Origin: a phage
DNA length: 64,000 nucleotides
Reading direction: 5' to 3' (one strand)
Sequence record: PZ379177.1
The translations under genes were made by a program, and so were the position numbers. The notes below the pieces were generated by a model. That model saw nothing but the letters and a program-made list of their open reading frames with translations, was not told where the DNA came from and did no database searches. Below are positions 12,430-59,393 of the stretch, piece by piece; position 1 is the stretch's first letter; each line of letters starts with the position of its first letter.

Positions 12430-13848
12430 TTATTCCCCTTTCAACCAAGCTTCAAATGCTTCGTCAGTTGCTGCAGAATCCGCAGCGGCCTTTTGTTTTG
12501 CGACTACACGCTGTTTTTGACCGTGTTCAACGCCGCGCAGATAGTTATCCACAACGTCAAACTCAGCACCATCAACGCACTTCAAGCCTAACTTTTTAGC
12601 GCCATATTTCGCTACGGACTTGGAGTCCATAGTTGCATGATCAAAGGCACCAACAACTTTAGACAGGCGCTGGTAGAGGCTATTCTTACGAGCAGAATCA
12701 GCGTAGAAAGCAGCAACTGCTGAATCAGATGCCATTGAGTGTTCCCCTTTTGCTGGACCTGGCGACGCTTTCGCCGCTTTTGTCGGTTTGTCATCTTTTT
12801 CGACCGAAGCCCCCTTTACGTTGCTGTTTTGCAGGCCGCTAACCACATCTTCAGCTTTGTCGCAAGGTGATACATCTTCAGCCTTGACTTCAACTTCTTC
12901 GTCTTTGACTTCGGCTTCAACTTCTTCTTCATCACCTACCGCGCCACCTTTCAGTTTTGCAATAAGTGCTTCGATTTGGCTGATCAGTTGCGGAAGCTCG
13001 CCACCAGCGTGAGATTCAGTTTCAACTTCAAACTTCTCTTCACCTTCTGGAGTCTCTTCAGCTTCTGCTTTGACTTCTGGATCAACCATCACTTCTTCAC
13101 GTTCTTCGGTTGAATCCTTCTCTTCTGCTTTCACTTCAACTTCGTCCTGATGAGCAGCTTCGGTGCTCTCTTCATTCAGAAATTGTTCGAGCGCAGGGAT
13201 CAGTGATTTCAGCTGTTCAACAGCATTATCACGCGCTTTACCTTTTAACGGTTTTGGCATGTCTAAATCCTCGTTGGATGGTGTTACAGTCGTCAAACAA
13301 AGATGGTCAAAGCAACGACCATCCAGCACCCGTGCACCTGGTACTCGACCAACGTCCACGAGAGCAATGTGGTTGCCGCGAAGAGTTGTCTGTACCACTT
13401 CATACGGCTGCCCGTCAAACTCTCCAGACTGTATGATGAATTCACAGTCATAGCCCAAAGACAAGTCAACCTTTCCAGAATCGATGGCTTTCTTCAGACG
13501 ACGGCTAAAAACTTTAAGATCGCCGCGCATCCATGGCTTGTCATAATAAACATTGCCAGTTAGAACGCCATCAACGCCATACTCTTCGGGTGCTGTGTTA
13601 TCCTCATCACCTTCGAATCCAGAAAGCATTTCGTGATTGTCTATGAAAGGGATATTTTTGAATGAATCTATCGCTTCGGGGTCTTTCACCGCTGACTCTG
13701 GGCGATAAACTTTTACGATGCGATTCGGATCACCATCAAGTCCAACCTGACCTGCAGAATAATCAAAAATGCCAAATGACGAAATGGGACAACCCACAAT
13801 CGTCAAGAATCCATTTTTGTCAATTTCGCGTGCCGTTTGCATTCGCAT
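12430..13848 (-). CDS. scaffolding protein with N-terminal prohead-protease-like domain (putative)
   Basis: 472 aa; C-terminal half highly acidic (E/K/V/A low complexity) typical of scaffolds; first gene of leftward structural operon. Confidence 0.45.
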   Translation of the reverse strand: MRMQTAREIDKNGFLTIVGCPISSFGIFDYSAGQVGLDGDPNRIVKVYRPESAVKDPEAIDSFKNIPFIDNHEMLSGFEGDEDNTAPEEYGVDGVLTGNVYYDKPWMRGDLKVFSRRLKKAIDSGKVDLSLGYDCEFIIQSGEFDGQPYEVVQTTLRGNHIALVDVGRVPGARVLDGRCFDHLCLTTVTPSNEDLDMPKPLKGKARDNAVEQLKSLIPALEQFLNEESTEAAHQDEVEVKAEEKDSTEEREEVMVDPEVKAEAEETPEGEEKFEVETESHAGGELPQLISQIEALIAKLKGGAVGDEEEVEAEVKDEEVEVKAEDVSPCDKAEDVVSGLQNSNVKGASVEKDDKPTKAAKASPGPAKGEHSMASDSAVAAFYADSARKNSLYQRLSKVVGAFDHATMDSKSVAKYGAKKLGLKCVDGAEFDVVDNYLRGVEHGQKQRVVAKQKAAADSAATDEAFEAWLKGE

Positions 13849-13958
13849 CCACCCTCAAATAAGTATTGTGTATTATATCTAATGAAAAAAACTTAGGCAA
13901 ACAATAATTATGGTTTGAATATGTATAACAACCGATATAGCCGCGCCTTAATTAGTGT

Positions 13959-14221
13959 GATACGGATGATACGGATAAAATGAGGCGTATTTTTATCCGT
14001 ATCGGTGTATAAGCCGCGCTATCACTGGTGTGCTACGGATGATACGGATGATACGGATACTTTTCATATATAAGAGTTTATAAAAAAAATAAAATTAAAT
14101 TAGATATATAATTTTAAATTAATTTATTTGAATTCCTATAAAGTATCGCGGCAACGCGTATCATCCGTATCATCCGTAAGATTCTTTTGAAAACAACTAC
14201 TTACTTGATACGGATGATACG
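13959..14221. repeat. complex regulatory repeat module copy 1: inverted arrays of 9-bp GATACGGAT units flanking an AT-rich core
   Basis: GATACGGATGATACGGATA at 13959 and 14041, ATCCGTATC in opposite orientation at about 13995 and 14156-14184; core 14060-14150 is >85% AT. Confidence 0.6.
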
Positions 14222-14265
14222 TCATTATACGCGTAAAATCCTGCGGCAATCCATTGCCAGGCGAT

Positions 14266-14403
14266 TCAGTGAATATTAAAAAGCACTCCAGCAACTAAAA
14301 CGCCAATCAGCATCGAGTCGTAAACAGCCCATTTCCAAGAAAGCAAAGAGTTGCAATTAATATTTCGCACTTTAACGTAACGTGACTGAATAATCTTTTG
14401 CAT
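14266..14403 (-). CDS. small membrane protein (45 aa), not in ORF track
   Basis: ATG at 14403 preceded by AGAGGAAG RBS overlapping upstream stop; product MQKIIQSRYVKVRNINCNSLLSWKWAVYDSMLIGVLVAGVLFNIH has a C-terminal hydrophobic helix. Confidence 0.35.
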   Translation of the reverse strand: MQKIIQSRYVKVRNINCNSLLSWKWAVYDSMLIGVLVAGVLFNIH

Positions 14404-14413
14404 AACTTCCTCT

Positions 14414-25849: not shown

Positions 25850-25944
25850 TGAATGTTGATTTCGTGATGTTTTTGATCATATTGGCGATAAGTTCAGTAT
25901 TTGTTGTCGCTATGATCGCGCTTATTGATTGGTTGGATAAATAA
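25849..25944 (+). CDS. small hydrophobic protein (31 aa), not in ORF track
   Basis: ATG shares its A with the upstream TGA stop; product MNVDFVMFLIILAISSVFVVAMIALIDWLDK is a single transmembrane helix. Confidence 0.3.
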   Translation: MNVDFVMFLIILAISSVFVVAMIALIDWLDK

Positions 25945-26602
25945 ATCGTGGTTTTGGTGATTTTGGTGATTTAACCGTGAATCGTGGGTCGCTGTGGCGG
26001 CCCTTTCTTTTGCCTGCCGCGCAGGAGTGTACTGCAAATTTACTGTGGGCACAAAATAGTACGGTACTGTCCAGGACTTTTTCTTTGAAAAGTTAGTGGA
26101 CCAAATGTGTCGTATTTTGATTAGTGTACTGCAAATTCCATCAAGTAGCAAAACGCACCAAAAGACCCATGCCATAAAAACCACACGAACGCAATAATCA
26201 ATCGCCGTTACAGTTTCCAGCGTTACAATTCGAAAGCGAATGATTCGATGCATAATAATATGAAGCATAATGATTCGAAAGCTAATGATTGCGTGTAGGA
26301 TAATATCGGTGGGGATTATTCTAGATGCATGTAATTTCGCATGCGTACTATTTTCGGACGAAGGGTCGGCATATTCCTCGTTTTAGTTCGGAACGAAGGG
26401 AAAGTTTTGCGCCTTTATAAAACAATGACTTACGCGACCCGCCCTAACGGTCCGATATAGGTGTCTATATAAAACAAGGACTTACGCGATGTTCTCCATT
26501 TAACGTAATACCCGTTATGCGAACTAAGGCGCATCTCGACGAAGATTATGCGACGACGAAGGGAAGGATAAAGGAGTTTTCGCGGAGAAGCGCATCGAGA
26601 TA

Positions 26603-26944: not shown

Positions 26945-27045
26945 AATAATCTCCTAGTTGGGTCGGGAGGGTAGCGACCTATTCGCTACCTCATCCCCTC
27001 TCGATATAAAACATTATAGTCTTAGTGTACGAAGAAGTAAAGCAC
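26945..27045 (-). promoter_or_regulatory. sigma70-type promoter plus structured 5' UTR for cassette gene 1
   Basis: minus strand TTTACT-N17-TATAAT, then hairpin GGTAGCGA-ATAGG-TCGCTACC, then AGGAG RBS. Confidence 0.5.
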
Positions 27046-27052
27046 TTTTTCA

Positions 27053-27396: not shown

Positions 27397-27579
27397 GTCT
27401 CGATATAAACAAGTATACGCGAGTGTACGAAGAAGTAAAGAAAAAAGATAAAATAATTTATCGCATTTTTATCTAAAAAGTGCTTTACTTTTTTCTACAC
27501 TATATTATAATGTACTCATATCGGGACGGGATGAGTTAACGAATAGGTCGTTAACGCCTCTCCCAACTAGGAGTTTATT
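27397..27579. promoter_or_regulatory. divergent promoter pair with central palindromic operator and structured 5' UTR
   Basis: leftward TTTACT-N16-TATACT; rightward TTTACT-N16-TATAAT; between them AGATAAAA-N13-TTTTATCT; rightward UTR hairpin GTTAACGA-ATAGG-TCGTTAAC then AGGAG RBS. Confidence 0.5.
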
Positions 27580-27974: not shown

Positions 27975-28601
27975 ATGGTTAGCTTAAATCGCTTTTCTAC
28001 TAGCGGCGACGTTATCGCAACTAAGACCGCCGACCTCGTTGCATTCTATAATGCAAATTCCGGCTCAAAACCGATTAAGAAGTTTGCGGACCGCCGGACC
28101 GCCGAGACTCGCGTAATCGCGTTAATCGAGTCCTTAAACGCGCTCGATGCGCCGTCCAACGAGTCGCCCATCCCCGACGCGAAGGCGCGCGAGGAAGTGT
28201 CCAGCGATGTAAAAACTCATAAGGCGCGTGCGGTCGTTAAAAAGGCTGAGCCGACCCAGGAAGAACTCGACGCGATGACCGACGAAGAATATGAAGCCTT
28301 CGTTAAGAGCGGTTTAAATGATAGTGCAAATTGCGTAGTGCAAAATGGAACTCCTTCCCATCGCCGTTCGAATAGCGAAGGTATTGCAAAAAGCTGGGAT
28401 AATAAGGAAGTGGCGCAAAAGCGTCTCACCCGTAACGGTGTCATGGTCGAGGGTGTAGGCGAGTTCAAATCGGTCCGCGTAGCGTTCGCTGCGCTGGGAT
28501 TACCGGATAGCAAGCACATTCGCTTCCGCATGAAGCTTAAGGAAGCTGGGCGCTTGAACTTCGAGTTCGGCAACAAGTCCTACACCTTCCAGATTATCTA
28601 A
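27975..28601 (+). CDS. hypothetical protein (cassette gene 4)
   Basis: 208 aa; identical AGGAGTTTATTATG context; contains two ATAGTGCAAAT-type motif copies in its coding sequence. Confidence 0.6.
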   Translation: MVSLNRFSTSGDVIATKTADLVAFYNANSGSKPIKKFADRRTAETRVIALIESLNALDAPSNESPIPDAKAREEVSSDVKTHKARAVVKKAEPTQEELDAMTDEEYEAFVKSGLNDSANCVVQNGTPSHRRSNSEGIAKSWDNKEVAQKRLTRNGVMVEGVGEFKSVRVAFAALGLPDSKHIRFRMKLKEAGRLNFEFGNKSYTFQII

Positions 28602-28607
28602 TAGAAT

Positions 28608-28631
28608 GGCGGCCCTTCGGGGTCGCTTTTC
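28608..28631 (+). terminator. rho-independent terminator closing the rightward arm of the cassette
   Basis: hairpin GGCGGCCC-TTCG-GGGTCGC followed by TTTT, 7 nt after the 28601 stop. Confidence 0.4.
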
Positions 28632-28651
28632 ATAGTGCAAATTGGTGGCTT

Positions 28652-28915
28652 ATGAATACGCTCATTCTCATCGCTACGTTATCCATCGGAAGTGGTCGCA
28701 CCTTATCCCTTTACGACCATAGTGCAAATTGCGCTTATCCTACGCGCGTTGCGGCGATAGTTAATAGTGCAAATAAGATGCTATTCGAGACTTGCTGGCG
28801 GGTCGATAACGAGAAAGGTCGGGTAGTCTTAGGTTATAGTGCAAATCTGCTGGTGGAGTCGTTCGATTGGACGGTTGAAGGTCGTAAATTGTTACGGAAA
28901 GTGACTAAAAGATGA
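28652..28915 (+). CDS. questionable ORF (87 aa) carrying three in-frame copies of the 11-mer
   Basis: weak RBS; motif copies read as HSANCA, NSANKM, YSANLL; may be a repeat region rather than a gene. Confidence 0.25.
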   Translation: MNTLILIATLSIGSGRTLSLYDHSANCAYPTRVAAIVNSANKMLFETCWRVDNEKGRVVLGYSANLLVESFDWTVEGRKLLRKVTKR

Positions 28916-28976
28916 CTTATAATAATACACTTTCTAACGCGTTTATGGTTGTAACCTTCCCCGTCGTATTACCGAT

Positions 28977-29016
28977 GGCCCTAGAAGTGGAGAAAATGTG
29001 TTCTAGGGCCGTTTTA
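28977..29016 (+). terminator. rho-independent terminator
   Basis: perfect 10-bp inverted repeat GGCCCTAGAA...TTCTAGGGCC followed by GTTTTA. Confidence 0.5.
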
Positions 29017-29029
29017 TAGTGCAAATTGG

Positions 29030-29503
29030 CTAGTGGCGGGAGAATTGCTCACCTTCTTTGGCCGCCTCTCCAAAATCCTTGTAGAAATCGTCCATGGAAC
29101 GGCCCATTTTACTATTGCCGTTTTCATCAATCATCGTGATGCCGTAGATGATATTCAGTTCACGAATAGCATTAAGTTTGGCTGACGCCGCGACTTCTGG
29201 ATCACGCACAAGCTTGACCAAATTGTGAATTGCACCTTTTACGCTCCACAAATCCTTGAGTGGCATCTCTTCCATACGCTTTTTGAAGCGCATCTTGTAG
29301 TATGGATTGCGTTGCGCGCAAAGGATTCGCTGGCCAGTGTAGTTATCCGTTGCAACTTCCATTCCAAATACTAGTGCAAAAGCTGCGCGCATGTCATGGC
29401 CCTGAATAACAAGGTCAATGAACTCATCGAATAAAGCCTGATTGTGCTCTGCAAATCGCGGGTCTTCAAAGTCTTCAGGCATCGCTACATAATCTTGACT
29501 CAT
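29030..29503 (-). CDS. hypothetical protein (speculatively terminase small subunit-like)
   Basis: 157 aa with normal phage codon style; no clear SD; both candidate ATGs lie inside copies of the 11-mer (read as TTTGCACTATG on the coding strand). Confidence 0.45.
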   Translation of the reverse strand: MSQDYVAMPEDFEDPRFAEHNQALFDEFIDLVIQGHDMRAAFALVFGMEVATDNYTGQRILCAQRNPYYKMRFKKRMEEMPLKDLWSVKGAIHNLVKLVRDPEVAASAKLNAIRELNIIYGITMIDENGNSKMGRSMDDFYKDFGEAAKEGEQFSRH

Positions 29504-29654
29504 AGTGCAAAATCCCATAGTGCAAATTAATAGTGTGAATTATACAATGGATGGACATTATATTCAAGTGCAGATTGATGTTCATTATGGCTATAAACGT
29601 ACACAAATCATAGTGCTGAATGGATAACGGACCGTGGTGCGTGGTGTACTGTTT

Positions 29655-30004
29655 GATACGGATAAAAGAAATCCATCCCTTTCGCCGCTTGTTATGCAAA
29701 TCAATGACTTAGCCGCTGCTGGCTGGTTTAAGCGTATCATGACGTATCATCCGTATTGCCGCAAGTCTTTGTTTTTACTTATATCTTACGGATAATACGT
29801 TAAATATATAAATTAACATAAGTATGAGGATGTAGAAAAAAAATTAATTTAAATTAATTCAAAATGGAGTTAATTAATTTTTGAAATAATTCTGGTTACA
29901 ATAAGGAAAAATGGCGTATCATCCGTATCATCCGTAAGATTCAGTGTACAAATCCAGGCGCGGCGCACCCTAGCGCCATGATACGGATAAAAACCTATCC
30001 GTAA
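29655..30004. repeat. complex regulatory repeat module copy 2 (GATACGGAT units flanking an AT-rich core)
   Basis: 29-bp block GCGTATCATCCGTATCATCCGTAAGATTC identical to 14156-14184; GATACGGATAAAA at 29655 and 29980; AT-rich core 29800-29900. Confidence 0.6.
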
Positions 30005-30319
30005 GAGTGTACGCTTCAATTAAAGAATCCAGGCGCGGCGCGGCTTTCACCACCACACACCACGGTTCACTCTCCAAAATCCGCACACTAAATTCCAAAA
30101 TCCAATGCTCATACTCCAAAAATAAATCCAAATTTCCATTTTATTTATTATTTTCATCCACAATATACTAAATTCTATCCGTATTAACCACGACTCAACC
30201 CACCACGATTCATGCCAATCACTTCAAAATTTCCATCGAAAACGACAAAAGGCCGCGTAAAGCGACCAATTGCACACATTCCATTATTCAAAACACGTAA
30301 ACGAGTGTTCTTTTATCCA

Positions 30320-30859
30320 CTATAATTTAGGCATCAATCCCTTTTCCGTTCTCCTTTTTATCTCGTCTTCTATCATTTTATTGGTCACTCTATAGCCAAT
30401 CCTTTCCAATTCCATTAATACTTCCTTTTGGTATTTTCTTATTTTCACAATGTCAACCGTATCCCTCCAATAAGATAATACCTTCTTAATGACTGACTTT
30501 TCCATTTTATATCTGGCGGTAGTCATATACTTCATTTTAAAAATAGAGTTGATCGCATCAGTCTTTAACCATTCCTTTCTTAATTCAGGATGATCATTCC
30601 AAAGAGTAATGGCGAACTCCTGCGGACTTTTGCACCTGCTTTGAAGCTCCTTTATATAGTCAGCCGTTTTTACTTTTCTATCTAAACGCGCGCGGCAAAC
30701 GGTGCACTCTTCCTTGAGCAACCAATCGGCCTTCTTATCAATTTGCAAAGTTGAATTGCCATCCCTTTTATACCTGCCGCAAAAGCTTATGCCTTCATCT
30801 TTTAAGAAGTAATGCAACTCTTTAGAGTATTTCGCTTTACGCCAAAAGCCTCCCATCAC
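30320..30859 (-). CDS. hypothetical protein
   Basis: 179-aa basic ORF. Confidence 0.45.
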   Translation of the reverse strand: MMGGFWRKAKYSKELHYFLKDEGISFCGRYKRDGNSTLQIDKKADWLLKEECTVCRARLDRKVKTADYIKELQSRCKSPQEFAITLWNDHPELRKEWLKTDAINSIFKMKYMTTARYKMEKSVIKKVLSYWRDTVDIVKIRKYQKEVLMELERIGYRVTNKMIEDEIKRRTEKGLMPKL

Positions 30860-31425
30860 CCCTCCTTAACTACCCGATAAGCAACAACGTCCCAAGCTTC
30901 TCCGTGGTGATCCCAATGCAAAACACTCGAGTGAATTTGATCATTGCCACGTTCGCCGTTACGCATTTTGAATTCAACCATTTCCCCAGGCACCGGATTA
31001 TCGCCACCAAACCACACGGTCCACGCTTCCTCCTTCGGCGCATCAGAATCCACGCCTATAGTAGCAACGACGTCATGCAACTGCTTAACGAGCGCCGACG
31101 CATCACGGACTTGTGAGCGTAATGCAACCAACTCGCGTTGCACTTCACTGTATTTCGCTTCCAGCGCGGCATAATCAGCAAACTTCACATATGAACCAGA
31201 GGTGTCATCACCCTCTGTATTGAGCCATGCATCATTGCAGTTTACTGCATACGTTTTAACTTCACCGCATTTCGGCTCAAGCGCGACGCGACTTTTTACT
31301 TCACTGTATTTCGCTTCCAGCGCGGCATAGTCCTCATATTCAACATAGCCGCCTTCATCATCCTTTACAACTTCGCATGTGCAAGCGTGCTGCGTGCAAT
31401 AATCAACATCATAACGTTGTATCAT
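30856..31425 (-). CDS. hypothetical protein with internal tandem duplication
   Basis: 189 aa; repeated block DYAALEAKYSEV encoded by duplicated DNA around 31138-31175 and 31288-31325. Confidence 0.45.
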   Translation of the reverse strand: MIQRYDVDYCTQHACTCEVVKDDEGGYVEYEDYAALEAKYSEVKSRVALEPKCGEVKTYAVNCNDAWLNTEGDDTSGSYVKFADYAALEAKYSEVQRELVALRSQVRDASALVKQLHDVVATIGVDSDAPKEEAWTVWFGGDNPVPGEMVEFKMRNGERGNDQIHSSVLHWDHHGEAWDVVAYRVVKEG

Positions 31426-33369: not shown

Positions 33370-33728
33370 AGCTCACCCTCTTTAAAAACAAAGCCGCTGA
33401 TAACAGATTGATAGTAGTTCACGCCGCGCACCTCTACAACCTTGCAGCGATGGGCCTGGCCCTTATGTTCTATCCACCAGACTTCCATATCAGGCAAGTT
33501 GTTGCGACGCGTCAACCAGCCGTGAAACAGCTTGTATGTTTCGCCGACCTTAAAAGGTTTCAGCGTACCGTAAGAATCAACCTTGAATGCGCAGACAACA
33601 TCTTTGCTGTCTTTGTGCACCGCGTCATGAAATAATCCGCTTCTGCCAAACCTTTCGTCGTAACTCATAATCATTTCTCCTTTGCTTGATGAACTAAGTA
33701 TAATACAGACAAATAAAAAGGCAAGCAT
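33366..33728 (-). CDS. hypothetical protein, paralog of 32288..32686 (true start may be internal Met MSYDERF)
   Basis: 120-aa ORF; shared FKVG[EQ]TY block. Confidence 0.4.
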   Translation of the reverse strand: MLAFLFVCIILSSSSKGEMIMSYDERFGRSGLFHDAVHKDSKDVVCAFKVDSYGTLKPFKVGETYKLFHGWLTRRNNLPDMEVWWIEHKGQAHRCKVVEVRGVNYYQSVISGFVFKEGEL

Positions 33729-33746
33729 TTAGCTCACCTTTTTGAA

Positions 33747-34925: not shown

Positions 34926-35010
34926 AATTCACCTCGCTTGTTTGTCTTGATGAAAAGAGTATAAGTATTGATAAAAGAAAAGGCAAGCATTTAGCTCACC
35001 TTTTTGATAT

Positions 35011-37767: not shown

Positions 37768-38415
37768 TTATCCTGTGGCCTGCATATTGCGTACATACTT
37801 CTGCTCTAATGAATAGATGAAGTCGGCGACCGTCAATCCTTTGGTGTGCCACTCATACATTGTGTAGCCTGTATTCAGGAAATAGCCGCGCACTTTATCC
37901 ATCGCTTCAGCTTCCTCCATGGAAGCCATCAGCGCGGCGACGTTATCATAAGAAGGCACAAATCCCTTCTTGCGTAGCGCATTGCGCAAATCTTTAGTTC
38001 TGAATCCAATCTTGCACGGGTCATCACGGCCCGTTGATGATGCAACCTTCGGCAAAGCAAGGAACTCTTTGAGGAACATCGAGATGTTCAGGTCGCCTGC
38101 ATCATCAAGCTTCTGGAGTCGGTTGCGACCGCGCCCCTTGAATTCACTCGCACGGGGGTGAGCGCCAAAACAGTGCGCACCTTCCAATTTAGGGTCGATG
38201 ATCATCAAATCTTTTCCTACGCGCAATTCAACGTAGTAAAGGTATGTCTCATCGACAAGCTTCGTGCGTTTACAGGTGATGGAGTCCTTATCGTAACCAA
38301 AACCACGCAACACGGTTGAAATCATCCGGTTCATTTCTTCTCCGTGAACGTCACTCTCTTTGTTCAGTTCACCGAGATGTTGAAAGAATTTAGCGATGTT
38401 GATTGCTTTATTCAT
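37768..38415 (-). CDS. hypothetical protein
   Basis: 215-aa ORF immediately downstream of primase-helicase gene. Confidence 0.45.
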   Translation of the reverse strand: MNKAINIAKFFQHLGELNKESDVHGEEMNRMISTVLRGFGYDKDSITCKRTKLVDETYLYYVELRVGKDLMIIDPKLEGAHCFGAHPRASEFKGRGRNRLQKLDDAGDLNISMFLKEFLALPKVASSTGRDDPCKIGFRTKDLRNALRKKGFVPSYDNVAALMASMEEAEAMDKVRGYFLNTGYTMYEWHTKGLTVADFIYSLEQKYVRNMQATG

Positions 38416-40085
38416 CAGAATTCATCCTTATCTCTTCCTAAAGAACGTTTGCGCTCAATAACCTTCTTCAAGAATTCAATATCTTCAGGGTCAGACTCGT
38501 CGCGAATAAGATACGCTAAGATAGTCATCAAGTCAGAAATGTATTCCCCTGCTTCATTCTTAATCAGCGGCGTAAAGTATCCACGCTGGTTGCGATAGGT
38601 CGCAGGCTCAAATCCAAGCTTCGACATGTGCGGCGCAAGGGTACGTGAGAAAGGCGACTTGCCGCACTTAGCTCTGAATCCCATAGCGATTGCACCACTG
38701 GTGATGTGCCAGCGTCCGCTGTGATGTCGGTCATAAGGCGCGGTAATGACGACTTCAACAAGGTCGTTGTCGACCATCTCATCACGGATAACGCCGCGAG
38801 CACGTTCCATTTCATTCTTGCTAAACTCAGTAAGCATGCGAGATGTTTCACCAACAAACGCGTTGTAACCTGCTTCGCCGTGCTTCTCCATCCATGCAGC
38901 GCACTCAGCCATCAATTGCCAAACGTCTTCTTTCAAAGTGGAAAGATCAGCTTGGAAGTCTTTCGACCAGTTCGGCTGCCCGTCCTTGTCAGCAAGTTGG
39001 CCAACAAAGATAGGATATACACGACGGTTGCCCGTGTCATCACGCTGCATACCTGCGTATTCGTTGCCGTCCATGATAGCAATCCACTGGCGTGGTTTAA
39101 CCTGCGTATCTTCAAATTTGAAGTCCAGGTCATCTTCCGTCTTAGTCAGGAATGCTTTCATGTTTTCGATGTCAGCCTTTTTAAAGCCTGTCATCTCGCC
39201 AACGTTCGCGATAATTGAGCGACCCGTAATAGCTCGCAAGAACGGGTTGAAGTTCTGCGCGGCCAAGTTCAACGGAATCGGTGTTGCGTGGCGGTCGTTC
39301 ATAATAGCTTCGCAAAGTAGCTTACTAAAATAACTCTTCCCTGCGTTCTGGCCGCCGATGAGCGCGATGGAGATTGGCGCTTGACATCCAGGGTTTGTCA
39401 GGCGGTTGTAGAGCGATAGCCAAAAATACACACCGATTTGTCGGTTTAACTCTGTATCGAACGGTCGGAATAGCTCGATAAGGTATTTTTCAATGCGCGC
39501 AGTACCGTCCCATTCAGGAAGCTTCTTGTAGAAGAAGTCCATCAGGTCGTCGCGCTGATAACGCATGGCCCATTCCTTATAGGATTGAGCGACCTGACGT
39601 GAGTTTGGGTTGGACAGTCCTGCTGCGTCGACAGCGGCAACTATCTCTGTGACTTCCAAAGTACGGTCGGTGAATGTTTCGCCGCGATGGTCGACTAAGC
39701 GCCCACGAAAAGTATCTTTGTGAGGGAATGGAACAACGCCACTTCCCTTATCAAACAACGCGTCGAAAACCGCATAACGGTTCATGTCACTCGTCCGGTC
39801 TGCCTGTAGAACGAAGTCATCTTTGGTAGGCTTGTAGTGAGGGAACTTGATTACCTGAAGTGAGGCGAGCAAGCGTGCTCTTTCAACCAAGTCTTCTTCA
39901 CCGTAGCATTCCATGCGCTCTGCATCTTTCTCAACAGCCTTATGCTGGAGGCTGATTTTAGCTCTGGTGCCTTGCTGCTCTGCCGCTTGCATCTCTTCTG
40001 AAACACCAGCGTCTTGAATTTCGTCAAAGATTGCACCAAATTCATCACCTGTATCCTCTGGAAGATTGTCATGTTCAATTGACAT
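38415..40085 (-). CDS. primase-helicase-type P-loop NTPase (D5/P4 family-like)
   Basis: 556 aa; Walker A IALIGGQNAGKSYFSKLL in C-terminal half. Confidence 0.55.
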   Translation of the reverse strand: MSIEHDNLPEDTGDEFGAIFDEIQDAGVSEEMQAAEQQGTRAKISLQHKAVEKDAERMECYGEEDLVERARLLASLQVIKFPHYKPTKDDFVLQADRTSDMNRYAVFDALFDKGSGVVPFPHKDTFRGRLVDHRGETFTDRTLEVTEIVAAVDAAGLSNPNSRQVAQSYKEWAMRYQRDDLMDFFYKKLPEWDGTARIEKYLIELFRPFDTELNRQIGVYFWLSLYNRLTNPGCQAPISIALIGGQNAGKSYFSKLLCEAIMNDRHATPIPLNLAAQNFNPFLRAITGRSIIANVGEMTGFKKADIENMKAFLTKTEDDLDFKFEDTQVKPRQWIAIMDGNEYAGMQRDDTGNRRVYPIFVGQLADKDGQPNWSKDFQADLSTLKEDVWQLMAECAAWMEKHGEAGYNAFVGETSRMLTEFSKNEMERARGVIRDEMVDNDLVEVVITAPYDRHHSGRWHITSGAIAMGFRAKCGKSPFSRTLAPHMSKLGFEPATYRNQRGYFTPLIKNEAGEYISDLMTILAYLIRDESDPEDIEFLKKVIERKRSLGRDKDEF

Positions 40086-41394: not shown

Positions 41395-42477
41395 CTATTT
41401 TATGCCACCTGCACGACGATTTATCATGTCAAGTTGATTCTCAATATAAGGCATGACGATTGCTTCAACAAAAGCAGTCCAACCTTTCTTGCCTTCCCCT
41501 TTCCGGTGACAGTCGTGAGCGCAACCGAAAACGAATTCATGTTCAGCGCCAGGGATTGGGCCGCGAAAATAAGCGCCGTATGGGTCGCCGTTGGTGTGTT
41601 CTTCACCCCAAGGACAGATGATGCGGCATTTGCCTGACATGTTTTCAACAACATCGCCATCGGACCCTTCACCCATCTTATTGCGAGCAAGGATTTGCTG
41701 GGCTATTTTATACCAAACAGCATCATATTTGTATTCGTCAACGTCAATTTGAATTTCACGCTTTTGCGGCATAACGACGTGGAAACCGAAGGCTTGGCAA
41801 ATCTCTTCGATTGTGTAGCGCAAAGAATAGTCTGCATGAACAAGTCGGCAGCGGAACGGGTCGCCGTTCTCATCGACATATTTATAGGGGCCGTCGTGAG
41901 TCACACGCTTGTTGTTGATGCACCCAGGAACACGGCCCACGCGCGTTACGTCTTTAATCGTGTTGTCGCCGCCCTTCTTGAGTACCATGTTAACGAAAGA
42001 CCCAAGGAACGCTTTGAACTGAATAAGATGGTCAATCGGTTCTTTAAAGAAGTACCAAAGCTGGTGGTTGTTCGGTGAAGTCTCGACGATGACAGTCGGC
42101 TTCAGTCGCTCGAAAAAGAATTCCAAATCTAAATCGCCTTTGGACCCTTTACCGTGACCGATGTCGTCGACCATCATCGCCATACCGTGACCAAAGGCCG
42201 ACTCTGTACGCCAGTATCGCATCTCACCCGTCTTTGGGTTGGGAGACTTACGCATCGAACTGATGCAAGCATAGCCGTTTTGGTGCTGCATGAGCGGCTT
42301 GCCCAACTTCCAAGGCTTAGGCCAGAAGCTGCTGTTGATCTTCTTGCCGCGTTCGTCGGTCTGTACCGTTGCTTCAGGAGCAAACACCGTCATGACGCGC
42401 TCATCTTCTGGAATGCCTCTTTGGAGTTCTGTTAAAAACTCTTCGATTATTTTTGCTTCTTCTCTTAAACTAGCCAT
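41395..42477 (-). CDS. replication-associated protein with C-terminal Cys/His cluster (possible primase-polymerase)
   Basis: 360 aa; acidic MMVDDIGHG motif and C-terminal CPWGEEH...CAHDCH cluster; no secure family assignment. Confidence 0.35.
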   Translation of the reverse strand: MASLREEAKIIEEFLTELQRGIPEDERVMTVFAPEATVQTDERGKKINSSFWPKPWKLGKPLMQHQNGYACISSMRKSPNPKTGEMRYWRTESAFGHGMAMMVDDIGHGKGSKGDLDLEFFFERLKPTVIVETSPNNHQLWYFFKEPIDHLIQFKAFLGSFVNMVLKKGGDNTIKDVTRVGRVPGCINNKRVTHDGPYKYVDENGDPFRCRLVHADYSLRYTIEEICQAFGFHVVMPQKREIQIDVDEYKYDAVWYKIAQQILARNKMGEGSDGDVVENMSGKCRIICPWGEEHTNGDPYGAYFRGPIPGAEHEFVFGCAHDCHRKGEGKKGWTAFVEAIVMPYIENQLDMINRRAGGIK

Positions 42478-42964: not shown

Positions 42965-44148
42965 TGAGCATTCCAGAATTTAATGATGAGCCAGTGATTC
43001 AGTTTAACGCGCAACAAATCGATGCCATCGAGAAGGCCGTTGCATGGTACAAGCGATTGCAGGACGGTAAAACTACGAAGCGCGTGTTTTTCATTGCTGG
43101 CTATGCAGGGACTGGTAAAACCTCTATTGCTCGCGAGATTGTGCGCCGATGTGTCGGTGAGTACGGCGCTATCTATATTGCTCCGACCGGAAAGGCTGCA
43201 AGCCGATTAAAGCAAAAAGGCTGTCGTGGCGCTAAGACCCTTCACCAGTTCATCTATAACGTGCGCGGCGTTAACGATGACAATGAACCAATCTTCGCAA
43301 GAAAGTCAACGCTTGATGAAAGGCCGCACCTTGTCGTCCTTGATGAAGCTTCAATGGTCGGTGAGTGGGACACAGAGCGCCTTCTTGATCACCGCATCCC
43401 TGTCCTGGCATTAGGCGACATTGGACAAGTCCCTCCGGTAAAAGCCGCAGCCTACTTTACCGAAGAAGCCGTTGACGTACTGTTAACCGAAATCATGCGG
43501 CAGGGGAAAGAGTCAAACATAATCCGCGCCTCCTTCTTCGTGCGCCAAGGCAACCGACTTCCTCCGCGTGAATACGATGACGTCAAAGTATTGGCAGAAT
43601 CGCCGCGCGTTACTGCGTTGAAGAAATTCATGGGCAAAGATGATCAAATTATTTGCTCCTATAACAGCACCAAAGATAAATGGAATTCATTATTACGGCA
43701 AGTGAGCGGACGTATAACGCCAATGCCAGGAATCGGTGAGAAGGTTATTTGCACCTTCAACCAACACGGGCCAGGATTCTGTAATGGCGAGCAAGGGATT
43801 GTTATTAGCTATGAGCCAGTGCCGGACTTTGAAAGGGATGAAGATGAGTCGAATGAAATCATGTATGTTAATTTACGCTCATTGACTGATGGGAAAGATA
43901 TAAAGGTAAAGATCAATCCTCTTTCCTTCTCTACTGATCAGGAAGTGCGCAAAGAGGCCCAACGCGCTGTTGGAGGCATGGACTATGGCTATGTCATCAC
44001 GGTGCACAAATCGCAAGGCAGCGAGTGGGACAATGTGTGCGTGCTGGAAGAAATCTTGCACGGCGTTCCGTACTCCAAGATGATGTACACCGCTATCACC
44101 CGTGCTAAGAAGAATCTGACCGTGTACCGTGATTTGAAAGCGCGTTAA
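42964..44148 (+). CDS. Dda/RecD-like superfamily 1 DNA helicase
   Basis: Walker A GYAGTGKTS, Walker B VVLDEASMV, motif VI VITVHKSQGSEWDNV. Confidence 0.75.
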   Translation: MSIPEFNDEPVIQFNAQQIDAIEKAVAWYKRLQDGKTTKRVFFIAGYAGTGKTSIAREIVRRCVGEYGAIYIAPTGKAASRLKQKGCRGAKTLHQFIYNVRGVNDDNEPIFARKSTLDERPHLVVLDEASMVGEWDTERLLDHRIPVLALGDIGQVPPVKAAAYFTEEAVDVLLTEIMRQGKESNIIRASFFVRQGNRLPPREYDDVKVLAESPRVTALKKFMGKDDQIICSYNSTKDKWNSLLRQVSGRITPMPGIGEKVICTFNQHGPGFCNGEQGIVISYEPVPDFERDEDESNEIMYVNLRSLTDGKDIKVKINPLSFSTDQEVRKEAQRAVGGMDYGYVITVHKSQGSEWDNVCVLEEILHGVPYSKMMYTAITRAKKNLTVYRDLKAR

Positions 44149-44307
44149 TGTTGACGTAAATTTACGAAAAATAAAACTGAAAATCAGTTTAATTAAAGTG
44201 GCATTGCCGCCATAGTTTTTAGTTGCTACTGGCGGCGACTGAAGGCATAATTAAGTTATCCCAAACGGGGAATATAAAATAAACTAATTTATTTAAGGAC
44301 TGTGAAT

Positions 44308-45147
44308 ATGGCCGAAGCAATCAAAGTATTATCTAAAGAAGAAAAACAAGCAGCCGCAGCAGAACGTCGTCGCGTGGCTGAAGAAAAACGCCTGGCTAAA
44401 AAGAAAGAAGCCGAAGAAAAACGCCAGAAGCGTGAGCAGGAAAAACAAGCCAAGCGTGAAGAAGCTGCGCTGAAACGCAAGCAAGCTGCTGATGAGAAGG
44501 CTCAGAAGCGTGCTGAAGAAGCAGCTAAGAAAGCTAAAGAGCGTGCAGAAAAGGCTGCCGCTAAGAAGGCAGAGCGTGAAGCCGCTAAAGCCGCTAAAGA
44601 AATTGAAAAGGCAAAGGCGAAAGAAGAAGCCAAGCGCCTGAAAGCTGAGCAGGCTGCGGCCAAGAAAGCTGAGCGTGATCAAGCCCGTGCTGCAGCGAAG
44701 GCCGAAAAAGAGAAGGCAAAAGAAGAAGCTAAAGCGAAACGCAAGGCAGAGCGTGAAGCTGCTAAGATTGCGGCGAAAGAAGCTGCAGAACAGCAGAAAG
44801 AACAGCGTAAGAAAGAAGCTGAAGAACGTCGCAAAGCCATCGCAGAACGTAAGGCTGCTAAAAAGGCAAACGGTCAGCGTCGTGCAAAAGCCACTCACTT
44901 CATCTACACTGGCAATGGCCTGAGCCAGCCGCAAGAGCATTCCACCCGTGGACGCGTTCTGGCGGCGATCAAAGAAGGCGAAGTTGGCGTGGCGCAGTCT
45001 ATCGATGAGCTGGGCGAAAAAGTTAAAGATCAACTGTTTGGCGCTTCCGTTCGCTCCTACCTGAGCAAGCTGGAAGAGATGGGCCACATCGAGTTTGTCG
45101 ATGTTGAATCCAATGACGATGCCGAAGACGGTGATCAAGCGGAATAA
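44308..45147 (+). CDS. Lys/Ala/Glu-rich coiled-coil protein with globular C-terminal domain
   Basis: about 190 aa of KAE low-complexity repeat, then a non-repetitive 80-aa C-terminus; RBS AAGGA before ATG at 44308. Confidence 0.5.
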   Translation: MAEAIKVLSKEEKQAAAAERRRVAEEKRLAKKKEAEEKRQKREQEKQAKREEAALKRKQAADEKAQKRAEEAAKKAKERAEKAAAKKAEREAAKAAKEIEKAKAKEEAKRLKAEQAAAKKAERDQARAAAKAEKEKAKEEAKAKRKAEREAAKIAAKEAAEQQKEQRKKEAEERRKAIAERKAAKKANGQRRAKATHFIYTGNGLSQPQEHSTRGRVLAAIKEGEVGVAQSIDELGEKVKDQLFGASVRSYLSKLEEMGHIEFVDVESNDDAEDGDQAE

Positions 45148-59363: not shown

Positions 59364-59393
59364 AAGCCGGAAATTTCCGGCTTTTCTTTTATT
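59364..59393 (+). terminator. rho-independent terminator
   Basis: hairpin AAGCCGGAAATTTCCGGCTT followed by TTCTTTTATTT. Confidence 0.5.

What the first reader, a model, noticed from the sequence alone, without database searches (positions are those of the whole stretch)
29504..30319. An 800-bp non-coding hub with additional repeat families and phased A-tracts
Besides module copy 2, this gene-free stretch contains AATCCAGGCGCGGCGC twice (about 29951 and 30027). It also has a C/A-rich strand with TCCAAAAT-type repeats at about 30073, 30094, 30115 and 30127. The roughly 21-bp spacing equals two helical turns and predicts intrinsically bent DNA. An intergenic region this long is unusual in a compact phage genome and suggests an origin, a regulatory hub or an unannotated ncRNA.
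Basis: seen in the sequence. Interest (0 to 1): 0.5.

Follow-up and report, generated by a model that had tools for sequence, protein, structure and literature searches.

The report
Phage genome end and packaging site
This 800-bp gene-free stretch is the place where copies of this E. coli phage's genome are joined and then cut for packaging, and a second copy of its repeat-flanked, A+T-rich core sits 16 kb away for reasons still unknown.

Summary
AATCCAGGCGCGGCGC occurs at 29951 and 30026. TCCAAAW occurs at 30073, 30094, 30115 and 30127. The A-tract phasing there ranks first in the whole 64-kb window. No ORF in the gap shows coding signal.

The window is a Wifcevirus, an E. coli myovirus with a ~3.7-kb direct terminal repeat (DTR). 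Four database records that carry both repeat copies all begin at the nucleotide homologous to window 29865. So the gap is the concatemer junction. The left physical end lies at 29865|29866, inside an 83-87% A+T core. That core is flanked on both sides by 9-bp iterons (NCGTATCAT / ATCCGTA), GC boxes and CACCACGG boxes.

The small-terminase gene starts 362 bp inside the repeat (E=7e-34 to the solved E217 TerS). In the headful relative JG024, published long-read starts map into the homologous module.

A paralogous module lies at 13939-14240, upstream of the prohead protease gene. Kylevirus and Pbunavirus have the same two-module layout, each with its own iteron sequence.

The GC boxes are only partly conserved. 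The phased A-tracts occur only in this lineage.

Best reading: a packaging-initiation site. An iteron-type replication origin remains a live rival or a second function. No ncRNA evidence was found.

The parts
29030..29503 (-). Small terminase subunit (TerS) gene, 157 aa. It is the first gene inside the terminal repeat.
   Evidence: phmmer against PDB gives 7UXE (Pseudomonas phage E217 small terminase decamer), E=7.3e-34 over residues 3-147. PHROG 4783 matches at E=8.6e-75. The Mansfield orthologue is annotated as terminase small subunit.
29502..29539 (-). TTTGCACTATG repeats overlapping the TerS start codon (29517-29525 and 29502-29510, plus a degenerate copy). They belong to a family of 8 exact TTGCACTAT copies, all on the minus strand, all within 28321-29525.
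   Evidence: L013 has the same arrangement, with three copies, the last holding the ATG.
29539..29584 (-). Two overlapping sigma-70-like promoter matches facing TerS (TGAACA-16-TATAAT and TTGAAT-17-TATAAT).
   Evidence: These are consensus matches only, and their number is not above shuffles. Kyle has TTGACG-17-TATAAT at the equivalent place. This block is 7-8/8 identical across the genus.
29621..29799 (.). DTR-internal arm of module 2. It holds a CACCACGG box (29632-29639, minus), iterons at 29653-29661 (minus), 29732-29740 (+), 29742-29755 (+) and 29785-29793 (minus), and TTGCCGCAAG at 29756-29765.
   Evidence: The arm is nearly invariant in 9 Wifceviruses.
29800..29912 (.). A+T-rich core of module 2 (83-87% A+T). 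It contains the inferred left physical end of the virion DNA between 29865 and 29866 (...CAAAAT|GGAGTTAATTAATTTTT on the + strand). The terminal repeat runs from 29865 downward.
   Evidence: This is the second most A+T-rich 90-bp window of the 64 kb. WFC, Mansfield, Ro157lw and SP13 records all start at the homologous nucleotide, and Kyle starts at the aligned position. Inverted repeat 29783-29799 / 29924-29940 (94%) is centred 4 bp from the end.
29913..30044 (.). Outer arm of module 2. It holds tandem 9-bp iterons at 29914-29940 (GCGTATCAT CCGTATCAT CCGTAAGAT), GC box 1 at 29951-29966, the inverted pair GATACGGATAAAA-N6-TATCCGTAAG at 29979-30005, and GC box 2 at 30026-30044.
   Evidence: These elements survive as conserved islands in an otherwise diverging sequence.
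30045..30245 (+). Hypervariable, G-poor (5% G) spacer. It carries a CACCACGG box (30058), TCCAAAW x4 (30073-30133) with phased A-tracts, a further ATCCGTA (30177) and ACCACGA boxes (30187-30212).
   Evidence: This sequence is shared only with RCIP0319.
30241..30267 (-). Intrinsic-terminator-like hairpin (GGTCGCTTTACGCGGCC + TTTTGTCGTT) ending the last minus-strand operon before the junction. It overlaps the second phased A-tract segment.
   Evidence: It is alignable in six of the eight relatives. ECML-117, Bas101 and Bas99 instead carry GGGCC(A/G)AT(C/T)GGCCC at the equivalent place, read from the alignment as a replacement hairpin and not scanned.
13939..14240 (.). Module 1, a paralogue of module 2. 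It has the same 9-bp iterons (8 copies of NCGTATCAT at <=1 mismatch), GC boxes (13940, 14013) and a 90% A+T core (14057-14146). It lies in the gap upstream of the prohead protease gene (12430..13848, minus).
   Evidence: 14043-14184 aligns with 29787-29942 at 78%. It is the most A+T-rich 90-mer of the window. The whole 565-bp gap is 94-100% identical in all 29 Wifcevirus records.
26080..26161 (.). Inferred other boundary of the terminal repeat. It maps to 26161 by homology to the Mansfield boundary, which is also the aligned Kyle boundary, or to 26080 by homology to the WFC record. It lies in a second non-coding stretch that has a 15-bp tandem repeat at 26239-26290.
   Evidence: Repeat lengths differ between records (3533, 3673, 3784), so this boundary is less certain than the left one.

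Best explanation
The gap is the concatemer junction of a Wifcevirus genome. Its conserved two thirds (about 29620-30045, 'module 2') is the packaging-initiation site.

Proposed mechanism:
- Terminase cuts inside the A+T-rich core between window positions 29865 and 29866. This creates the left physical end of the virion DNA, which is the left boundary of the ~3.7-kb direct terminal repeat.
- It then packages in the direction of the adjacent small-terminase gene.
- The arrays of 9-bp iterons (NCGTATCAT / ATCCGTA) are arranged as inverted sets on both sides of the cut. I read them as the sequence-specific recognition elements, most likely for the ring-shaped small terminase. A ring bound on both sides would hold and distort the A+T core for the large subunit's nuclease.

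The rest of the gap is ordinary plumbing:
- TerS promoter-like sites and TTTGCACTATG repeats on the repeat side.
- A fast-evolving G-poor spacer, in this lineage with phased A-tracts.
- The terminator of the last operon on the other side.

Shown here: the position of the end by homology to five deposited genomes, the identity of TerS, the anatomy of the module, its conservation pattern, and iteron co-variation across genera.

Inferred, not shown: which protein reads the iterons, that cutting needs them, and what the second module at 13939-14240 does.
For: (1) Physical end.
- WFC, Mansfield (opened at a PhageTerm-predicted DTR boundary, PMC6753283), Ro157lw and SP13 all begin ATTTT(G/A)A... at the nucleotide homologous to window 29865.
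- WFC carries two identical 3784-bp copies. Upstream of its right copy the sequence reads ...TTAATTAACTCC, as in the window.
- Pantoea phage Kyle (TerS 43% identical, 3603-bp terminal duplication) starts at the aligned position.

(2) TerS is the adjacent gene (E=7e-34 to 7UXE).

(3) Evidence from a headful relative.
- In Pbunavirus JG024, 36 of 161 long reads start at 59,376 +/-5, and a matching pac fragment was seen (PMC10913387).
- I mapped that position into the homologous Pbunavirus module. It lies about 45 nt outside the A+T core and 600 nt upstream of TerS. It is exactly where the Pa193 record starts.
- The coverage dip at 50-60 kb in that paper fits packaging toward TerS.

(4) Conservation.
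- The repeat side is 7-8/8 identical in 9 Wifceviruses.
- Identity collapses about 20 nt past the cut. Only the iterons and GC boxes remain as conserved islands.

(5) Symmetry. The inverted iteron pair 29783-29799 / 29924-29940 is centred 4 bp from the end.

(6) Iteron statistics and co-variation.
- ATCCGTA occurs 23 times in the window against 5.3 expected, and 17 of those are in the two modules.
- Each relative uses its own word: L013 GATACGT, Kyle AATAACC and AATATCC, Pa193 GTAATTTG. Each word is confined to that phage's modules.

(7) Precedent, from established knowledge. The P1 pac site has hexamer repeats on both sides of the cut. SPP1 has pacL and pacR flanking pacC (the SPP1 case is summarised in PMC9611059).
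Against: - The paralogous module 1 is 15.8 kb from the end, is even better conserved, and is not a known terminus. A packaging-only model does not explain it.
- Recombinant E217 TerS showed no appreciable DNA binding in vitro (PMC9611059). TerS as the iteron reader is therefore unproven.
- The iteron / A+T-core / iteron layout is also the classic layout of a replication origin.
- The end is inferred by homology to other isolates. No reads from this isolate were available.
- How the ends of WFC, Ro157lw, SP13 and Kyle were determined is not stated in what I could read, so some records may have copied each other's start.
- In Xanthomonas phage XcP1 the corresponding A+T module sits directly after the primase/helicase gene and 2.5 kb from TerS.
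Confidence: 0.72

Rival explanations
1. Modules 1 and 2 are iteron-type replication origins, or an origin plus a cis-acting partner as in P4 ori/crr. A phage-specific initiator, for example the VapE-like SF3 helicase with the RepB-type primase, would bind the iterons and melt the A+T core. That the genome end falls in the core of one of them would be secondary or coupled to replication. This could hold in addition to the packaging role.
For: - Two copies per genome share a layout of tandem and inverted 8-9-bp iterons around a 74-113-bp core of 83-92% A+T. These cores are the two most A+T-rich spots in the 64 kb.
- The iteron sequence is lineage-specific and identical in both modules of each phage, as expected for a cognate initiator.
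- The window encodes a VapE-like helicase (38415..40085, E=1.6e-28) and a RepB primase (41395..42477, E=1.6e-36).
- In Pa193, JG024 and XcP1 the module lies immediately downstream of the primase/helicase gene.
- Module 1 has no packaging explanation.
- Analogues from established knowledge: SaPI ori (two iteron sets flanking an A+T-rich stretch), P4 ori and crr (the same octamer in two places 4.5 kb apart), and RSF1010 oriV.
Against: - There is no replication data.
- DnaA boxes are not enriched (14 found, 14.0 expected).
- Cumulative GC skew shows no inflection at module 1 and a local maximum, not a minimum, at module 2. Skew here follows transcription direction, so this is weak evidence.
- Published Pbunavirus skew minima lie in the replication genes, not at the modules (PMC12390725).
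- This model does not by itself explain why DNA ends in three genera map inside module 2.
Confidence: 0.3
2. The modules are upstream regulatory regions. A phage-encoded transcription factor would bind the iterons, and the A+T core would act as an UP-element or bend. Together they would control the sigma-70-like promoters of the two downstream operons: TerS, and protease-scaffold-major capsid protein.
For: - Both modules sit in the same orientation upstream of minus-strand operons in the window.
- The same holds in Kyle and Pa193.
- Promoter-like hexamers lie between each module and its gene.
Against: - Only two sites exist in the genome. Other late-operon starts (TerL, portal) have no iterons.
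- The modules extend symmetrically 200-340 bp on both sides of the core. In module 2 that is far beyond a promoter and runs onto the side that faces a terminator.
- Promoter matches are not above shuffle expectation.
- No transcript data were available. The supplement of the 14-1 cappable-seq paper is not held.
Confidence: 0.15
3. The region would act mainly through intrinsic DNA curvature from phased A-tracts, or would encode an unannotated non-coding RNA.
For: - A-tract phasing at 30071-30175 and 30240-30344 ranks first and second in the window.
- The wedge-model curvature maximum of the window is at 30261.
- The RNA fold of the minus strand of 29866-30319 has z = -2.6.
Against: - Phasing is absent or weak in most other Wifceviruses and in the distant relatives, and the sequence at 30045-30245 is hypervariable.
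- There is no Rfam match at E<=1 and no tRNA or tmRNA.
- The conserved half folds no better than shuffles (z = -0.5).
- The stretch with z = -2.6 contains the terminator hairpin and the inverted iterons.
Confidence: 0.07

Closest known systems
Direct-terminal-repeat boundaries of Wifcevirus genomes as deposited (Mansfield MK903282, WFC NC_048195, Ro157lw MH051335)
   Same: The same locus. The left end of these records is homologous to window 29865. TerS starts about 360 nt inside, and the repeat is about 3.5-3.8 kb (PMC6753283, PMC6563267).
   Different: Those records and papers give only the coordinates of the repeat. In the literature I could search, none describes the iteron / A+T-core anatomy, the second module, or the lineage-specific iterons.
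pac sites with repeats on both sides of the cut: P1 pac (TGATCA/G hexamers, 4 + 3) and SPP1 pacL-pacC-pacR bound by small terminase G1P
   Same: Short repeated words flank the cleavage point on both sides. The terminase small-subunit gene is next to the site. Bent or distortable DNA lies at the site.
   Different: P1 and SPP1 are headful packagers, whereas this phage has a fixed terminal repeat. Its Pbunavirus relatives, which have the same module, are headful. The central core here is far more A+T-rich. The iterons are 8-9 bp and partly tandem. A second complete copy exists elsewhere in the genome. Binding by TerS is untested.
Iteron-type origins served by SF3 helicase/primase initiators: SaPI ori, P4 ori plus crr
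   Same: Two sets of short iterons flank an A+T-rich stretch (SaPI). The same iteron occurs at two sites kilobases apart (P4 ori and crr). Iterons are specific to each element. A VapE/D5-like helicase and a primase are encoded by the same genome.
   Different: There is no evidence of replication function. In this window the helicase gene is 8 kb from module 2. One module coincides with the packaging cut, which is not a property of those origins.
Putative pac site of Pbunavirus JG024 (position 59,376; PMC10913387)
   Same: It is the homologous module in a related genus. DNA ends pile up inside it, upstream of the orthologous TerS.
   Different: JG024 is circularly permuted and headful. Its iteron is GTAATTTGG with an 8-bp period. 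The cut lies about 45 nt outside the A+T core rather than within it.
T7/T3 concatemer junction
   Same: It is a junction between genome copies holding one copy of a direct terminal repeat, with repeat arrays near the ends. The repeat must be duplicated during maturation.
   Different: The T7 repeat is 160 bp and its processing depends on phage RNA polymerase transcription. There is no sequence or protein homology, and the terminase here is of the E217 type.

Membership tests
Packaging-initiation / terminal-repeat boundary site | A physical end of virion DNA maps to the site | tested here: met
   Met by homology only. Four Wifcevirus records that include the terminal repeat, plus Kyle, start at the nucleotide aligned with window 29865. 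JG024 read starts map into the homologous module. No reads from this isolate were available.
Packaging-initiation / terminal-repeat boundary site | A terminase small subunit is encoded by the phage, typically next to the site | tested here: met
   Window 29030-29503 (minus strand) matches the solved E217 small terminase 7UXE at E=7.3e-34. The gene starts 362 nt from the inferred end.
Packaging-initiation / terminal-repeat boundary site | The site is bound by terminase and is necessary and sufficient in cis for cutting and packaging | not testable with these tools
   This needs EMSA, ChIP or footprinting, and plasmid-transduction or site-mutation assays. E217 TerS did not bind DNA detectably in vitro (PMC9611059). 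Which DNA was offered in that assay was not checked here.
P1/SPP1-type pac site | Repeated short recognition words on both sides of the cleavage point | tested here: met
   Iterons lie at 29653-29793 on one side and 29914-30005 (plus 30177) on the other. An inverted pair is centred 4 bp from the end.
P1/SPP1-type pac site | Headful termination giving circularly permuted, terminally redundant DNA | tested here: not met
   Wifcevirus records carry a fixed terminal repeat with a defined left end. The feature is met only in the Pbunavirus relatives (PMC12390725, PMC10913387).
Iteron-type replication origin | Clustered iterons adjacent to an A+T-rich unwinding element | tested here: met
   The cores of the two modules are the two most A+T-rich 90-mers of the window.
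Iteron-type replication origin | A cognate initiator is encoded and binds the iterons, and the site supports initiation | not testable with these tools
   Candidate proteins exist: a VapE-like helicase and a RepB primase. Binding and replication are untested.
Iteron-type replication origin | Host DnaA boxes, for DnaA-dependent origins | tested here: not met
   TTATCCACA at <=1 mismatch: 14 found, 14.0 expected. Only two 1-mismatch copies lie in the gap.
Intrinsically curved DNA (phased A-tracts) | A-tracts repeated in phase with the helical repeat | tested here: met
   The amplitude is 4.70 of 5 at 30071 and 4.41 of 5 at 30240. These rank first and second of the window at period 10.5.
Intrinsically curved DNA (phased A-tracts) | The property is conserved in homologous loci, as expected if it is functional | tested here: not met
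   The best amplitude is 2.0 in ECML-117 and Bas101 and 2.7-3.5 in the other Wifceviruses. The values are unremarkable in L013 and Pa193, where the gap does not hold the sampled genome's maximum.
Non-coding RNA | Match to a known RNA family, or a conserved stable structure with its own promoter and terminator | tested here: not met
   There is no Rfam match at E<=1 and no tRNA or tmRNA. Fold z-scores are -0.5 and -2.6. Covariation could not be assessed, because the conserved half is nearly invariant and the other half is hypervariable and poorly alignable.

The most novel reading that the evidence does not exclude
The iteron / A+T-core module could be a bifunctional element, and the two copies could work as a pair.

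One version: both copies are origins of the SaPI or P4 ori/crr type, read by the phage's VapE-like helicase-primase. Terminase would then use the opened core of the TerS-proximal copy as its cut site. Replication initiation and packaging initiation would be physically coupled.

Another version: stacked TerS rings synapse module 1 with module 2, as in the twin-ring pac synapsis proposed for T4, before cutting is licensed.

Either version would be a conserved feature of Wifcevirus, Kylevirus and the therapeutic Pbunavirus phages. It would also offer one possible reason why E217 TerS showed no DNA binding in vitro.
Probability: 0.15. Interest if true: 0.8.

Novelty: new variant of a known kind. 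Interest (0 to 1): 0.5.

Why it matters
[quoted passage not shown] Wifceviruses have been reported to replicate unusually fast. For both groups the DNA signal that terminase recognises is unknown, and purified E217 small terminase showed no DNA binding in vitro.

This analysis gives a concrete candidate for that signal. It is a lineage-specific 8-9-bp iteron array around an A+T core, located where DNA ends actually map in three genera. The candidate can be tested directly by EMSA, by iteron swaps and by plasmid transduction.

It also matters for engineering and rebooting these genomes, where the ends must be designed, and for judging transduction risk.

The second, highly conserved copy inside the head-gene cluster has no explanation. 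I found no description of it in the literature I could search.

Tried and rejected
- Rfam at a permissive threshold on 29000-31000 gave nothing. ARAGORN on the whole window gave nothing.
- Pfam and PHROGs on every small ORF of the gap, and on the 95-aa ORF annotated in RCIP0319, gave nothing.
- The recurrent 49-52-aa ORF (annotated as Mansfield_001, Bas99_0093 and Bas100_0091) was rejected as a gene. Its variation is concentrated at codon position 1, and it is missing in Bas101 and in the Kyle and L013 gene lists.
- DnaA boxes are not enriched.
- Promoter and terminator scans are not above shuffles, except for one plausible terminator.
- Satellites or prophages carrying the module were sought in 5,426 E. 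coli genomes. There was no match.
A direct sequence match to the solved E217 TerS replaced it.
- 14-1 cappable-seq data could not be used. No supplement is held, and the 14-1 record starts near TerL, so promoter P001 cannot be assumed to lie upstream of TerS.
- XcP1 was examined as an outgroup. It has an A+T module after the primase/helicase gene, but its protease-upstream gap is not clearly a paralogue. The two-module layout is therefore shown only for Wifcevirus, Kylevirus and Pbunavirus.
- A T5-like nick site was considered as the meaning of the GC box. The T5 consensus R/GCGCRGG (PMC3517423) matches only 6 of 7 positions. The word here occurs on both strands. The idea was not pursued.
- The short Logan contigs L014 and L015 (6.4 and 4.0 kb, the latter close to repeat length) start 100-180 nt beyond the predicted end. 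They give no precise support.
Full report
**What the window is.** The region and its flanks match 29 phage records. All are Wifcevirus or unclassified relatives that infect E. coli or Shigella. The closest is RCIP0319 (95.7% over the full kilobase). These are 66-72-kb myoviruses distantly related to the Pseudomonas Pbunavirus (PB1-like) phages. They are reported to have a terminal repeat of about 3.7 kb (PMC6563267, PMC6753283).

**Checking the observation.**
- AATCCAGGCGCGGCGC is at 29951 and 30026, inside a 33-nt imperfect direct repeat.
- TCCAAAW is at 30073, 30094, 30115 and 30127.
- I measured A-tract phasing as the vector sum of A4+/T4+ tract centres at a 10.5-bp period in 105-bp windows. 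The segments starting at 30071 (4.70 of 5) and 30240 (4.41 of 5) are the two best in the 64 kb.
- A wedge-model path, with parameters recalled from memory, puts the window's most curved segment at 30261.
- The stretch is gene-free as far as I can tell. No ORF hits Pfam or PHROGs.
- The one recurrent small ORF (29591..29740, minus strand) varies mostly at first codon positions (12/5/4). Its start is lost in Bas101, and no gene is listed there for Kyle or L013.

**What the region is physically.**
- The minus-strand gene ending the gap on the left (29030-29503) is the small terminase. It matches the solved E217 TerS decamer (7UXE) at E=7.3e-34.
- Phage Mansfield was opened at a PhageTerm-predicted repeat boundary (PMC6753283), and its record starts 360 nt upstream of this gene.
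- WFC contains two identical 3784-bp copies of the repeat and starts at the same nucleotide. So do Ro157lw and SP13.
- All four begin ATTTT(G/A)A. In the window this is the reverse complement of ...CAAAAT ending at 29865. The sequence just outside (GGAGTTAATTAATTTTT) is what precedes the right-hand repeat copy in WFC and Ro157lw.
- Pantoea phage Kyle is in a different genus (TerS 43% identical) and has a 3603-bp terminal duplication. It starts at the aligned position.
- The gap is therefore the concatemer junction. Positions 29504-29865 are the first 362 bp of the virion DNA, present again at the right end. Positions 29866-30319 are the last 454 bp of unique sequence.
- The other repeat boundary maps to about 26161 (Mansfield and Kyle agree) or 26080 (WFC). 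Repeat lengths differ between records (3533, 3673, 3784), so that end is less secure.

**Anatomy around the end.**
- ATCCGTA occurs 23 times in the window against 5.3 expected. Seventeen of those lie in two clusters: 29657-30183 (module 2) and 13961-14215 (module 1).
- The full unit is a 9-mer, (C/G/A)CGTATCAT, partly in perfect 9-bp tandem.
- In module 2 the iterons sit on both sides of a core at 29800-29912 that is 83-87% A+T and contains the end.
- The inverted pair 29783-29799 / 29924-29940 is centred 4 bp from the end.
- Further out on each side lie CACCACGG-type boxes in inverted orientation (29632 minus strand, 30058 plus strand). On the outer side only, there are also two GC boxes.
- The cores of modules 1 and 2 are the two most A+T-rich 90-mers of the whole window. 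Positions 14043-14184 align with 29787-29942 at 78%.

**Conservation.**
- In an alignment of nine Wifceviruses, the repeat side of the gap is 7-8 of 8 identical at nearly every position.
- Identity collapses about 20 nt beyond the end. After that only the tandem iterons, CCAGGCGCGGC, TACGGATA and the second GC box remain as islands.
- Positions 30045-30245 are hypervariable but G-poor in the window.
- A terminator hairpin follows at 30251-30267. A different GC-rich hairpin-like sequence replaces it in three phages.
- The TCCAAAW repeats and the strong phasing occur only in the window and RCIP0319.
- The GC box is absent from ECML-117 and Bas101. Its core, GCGCGGC, is over-represented genome-wide: GGCGCGGC occurs 20 times against 2.1 expected from shuffles or 5.0 from an order-3 model, on both strands.

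**Distant relatives.**
- TerS homologues are rare in the large protein collection (6 clusters). They are present in 359 phage records, mostly Pbunavirus.
- Upstream of TerS, the metagenomic relative L013 (68% identical TerS) has the same layout but with GATACGT iterons. L014 and L015 use ACGGATA and ATACGGAA/ATACGCA.
- Kyle has AATAACC and AATATCC repeats around an A+T core at its junction. It has the same words and a homologous core in the 515-bp gap upstream of its protease homologue.
- Pbunavirus Pa193 has GTAATTTGG repeats, and long stretches of direct similarity, at the same two places.
- A motif-by-region table is clean. Each phage's word is found in both of its modules, almost nowhere else in its sampled genome, and not in the other phages' modules.
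- Module 1 is 94-100% identical over its whole 565-bp gap in all 29 Wifcevirus records.
- In Xanthomonas phage XcP1 an A+T module lies directly after the primase/helicase gene and 2.5 kb before TerS. Its protease-upstream gap is not clearly paralogous.

**Function.**
- The strongest outside evidence comes from Pbunavirus JG024, which packages by the headful route. In that phage 36 of 161 long reads begin at 59,376 +/-5, a matching pac fragment was seen on gels, and coverage dips just upstream (PMC10913387).
- I mapped that coordinate into the Pbunavirus module 2. It lies between the outer iterons and the A+T core, 600 nt upstream of TerS, at the very nucleotide where the Pa193 record starts.
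- DNA ends made by terminase therefore fall inside the homologous module in three genera, whether the phage ends up with a fixed repeat or a permuted genome. In each case the DNA retained runs toward TerS.
- That is why I favour packaging initiation as the function of module 2. The iterons would be the recognition elements and the A+T core the place that is distorted and cut. The analogy is with the P1 and SPP1 pac sites.

**What remains open.**
- Nothing here shows which protein reads the iterons. E217 TerS did not bind DNA in vitro (PMC9611059).
- Module 1 is not explained by packaging.
- The layout is equally that of an iteron origin (SaPI ori; P4 ori with crr). The phage encodes a VapE-like SF3 helicase and a RepB-type primase.
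- I therefore keep an origin, or a combined origin and pac element, as a serious rival.
- A transcription-factor platform for the TerS and protease/capsid operons is a weaker rival.
- Curvature or an ncRNA as the main function is unlikely.

**Novelty.**
- The terminal repeat and its coordinates are already in the database records, and TerS is known by homology.
- The following appear in none of the papers I could search: the anatomy of the site, its exact duplication upstream of the prohead protease gene, and the genus-specific iterons shared by both copies.
- I class it as a new variant of a known kind of element. It is of moderate interest because it offers a testable candidate for the unknown terminase recognition signal of Wifcevirus and Pbunavirus phages.

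Noticed in passing
window 13849-14413 (module 1 at 13939-14240): A second complete copy of the iteron / A+T-core module lies inside the head-gene cluster, just upstream of the prohead protease gene. The whole gap is 94-100% identical in all 29 Wifcevirus records. Equivalent paralogous modules exist in Kyle (L016 17571-18085) and Pa193 (L018 20083-20593). Its function is unknown.
   Followed up: partly
window 28321-29525, minus strand: There are eight exact copies of TTGCACTAT (usually ATTTGCACTAT[G/A]), all on the minus strand, all inside this 1.2-kb part of the terminal repeat and nowhere else in the 64 kb. Two overlap the TerS start codon. Others lie antisense within plus-strand ORFs. L013 has three tandem copies at its TerS start.
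   Followed up: partly
whole window, e.g. 8085, 14499, 16134, 23626, 36424, 47523, 53532, 60326: The GC-rich core GCGCGGC(A) is over-represented genome-wide on both strands. GGCGCGGC occurs 20 times against 2.1 expected from dinucleotide shuffles or 5.0 from an order-3 Markov model, and GCGCGGCA occurs 29 times against 5.7. It resembles, at 6 of 7 positions, the published T5 nick consensus R/GCGCRGG, but it shows no strand bias.
   Followed up: partly
window 25940-26420: The other boundary of the terminal repeat also lies in a non-coding stretch of about 450 bp with its own repeats. These are a 15-bp tandem array (26239-26290, AATGATTCGAAGCAT x3.5), TTGCAGTACAC x2, a 9-bp array (25948-25972) and a CCACGATTCACGG box like those in module 2. 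Kyle has AATCATT repeats at the equivalent place.
   Followed up: partly
window 29866-30319 and the equivalent region in relatives: Sequence conservation across the genus drops abruptly about 20 nt outside the physical end, from 7-8/8 identical to about 4/8. The unique right-end spacer has been replaced repeatedly between isolates, while the repeat side is almost frozen.
   Followed up: yes
window 31142-31191 and 31298-31347: A 50-nt direct repeat (86% identical, 156 nt apart) lies inside the minus-strand ORF 30856..31425. It looks like an internal duplication in a small gene whose N-terminus weakly matches Lar-like restriction-alleviation PHROGs.
   Followed up: no
window 33708-33745 and 34970-35007: A 38-nt repeat (92% identical), AAAAGGCAAGCATTTAGCTCACCTTTTTGA, lies 1262 nt apart in the small-gene region. 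By eye it looks like a reused terminator hairpin. This was not scanned.
   Followed up: no
window 27023-27050 and 27475-27502: A 28-nt inverted repeat (89% complementary) brackets about 420 bp inside the terminal repeat. By coordinate conversion this is the position of the Mansfield_006 orthologue.
   Followed up: no
window 44001-45000: This 1-kb bin is an AT-skew outlier (+0.384, against |0.2| or less elsewhere) and contains a 9-bp tandem repeat at 44579-44599. In XcP1 a 'putative structural protein' gene at 43.3-44.2 kb, in the replication-gene block, shows clustered repeated 8-mers. No homology between the two loci was tested.
   Followed up: no
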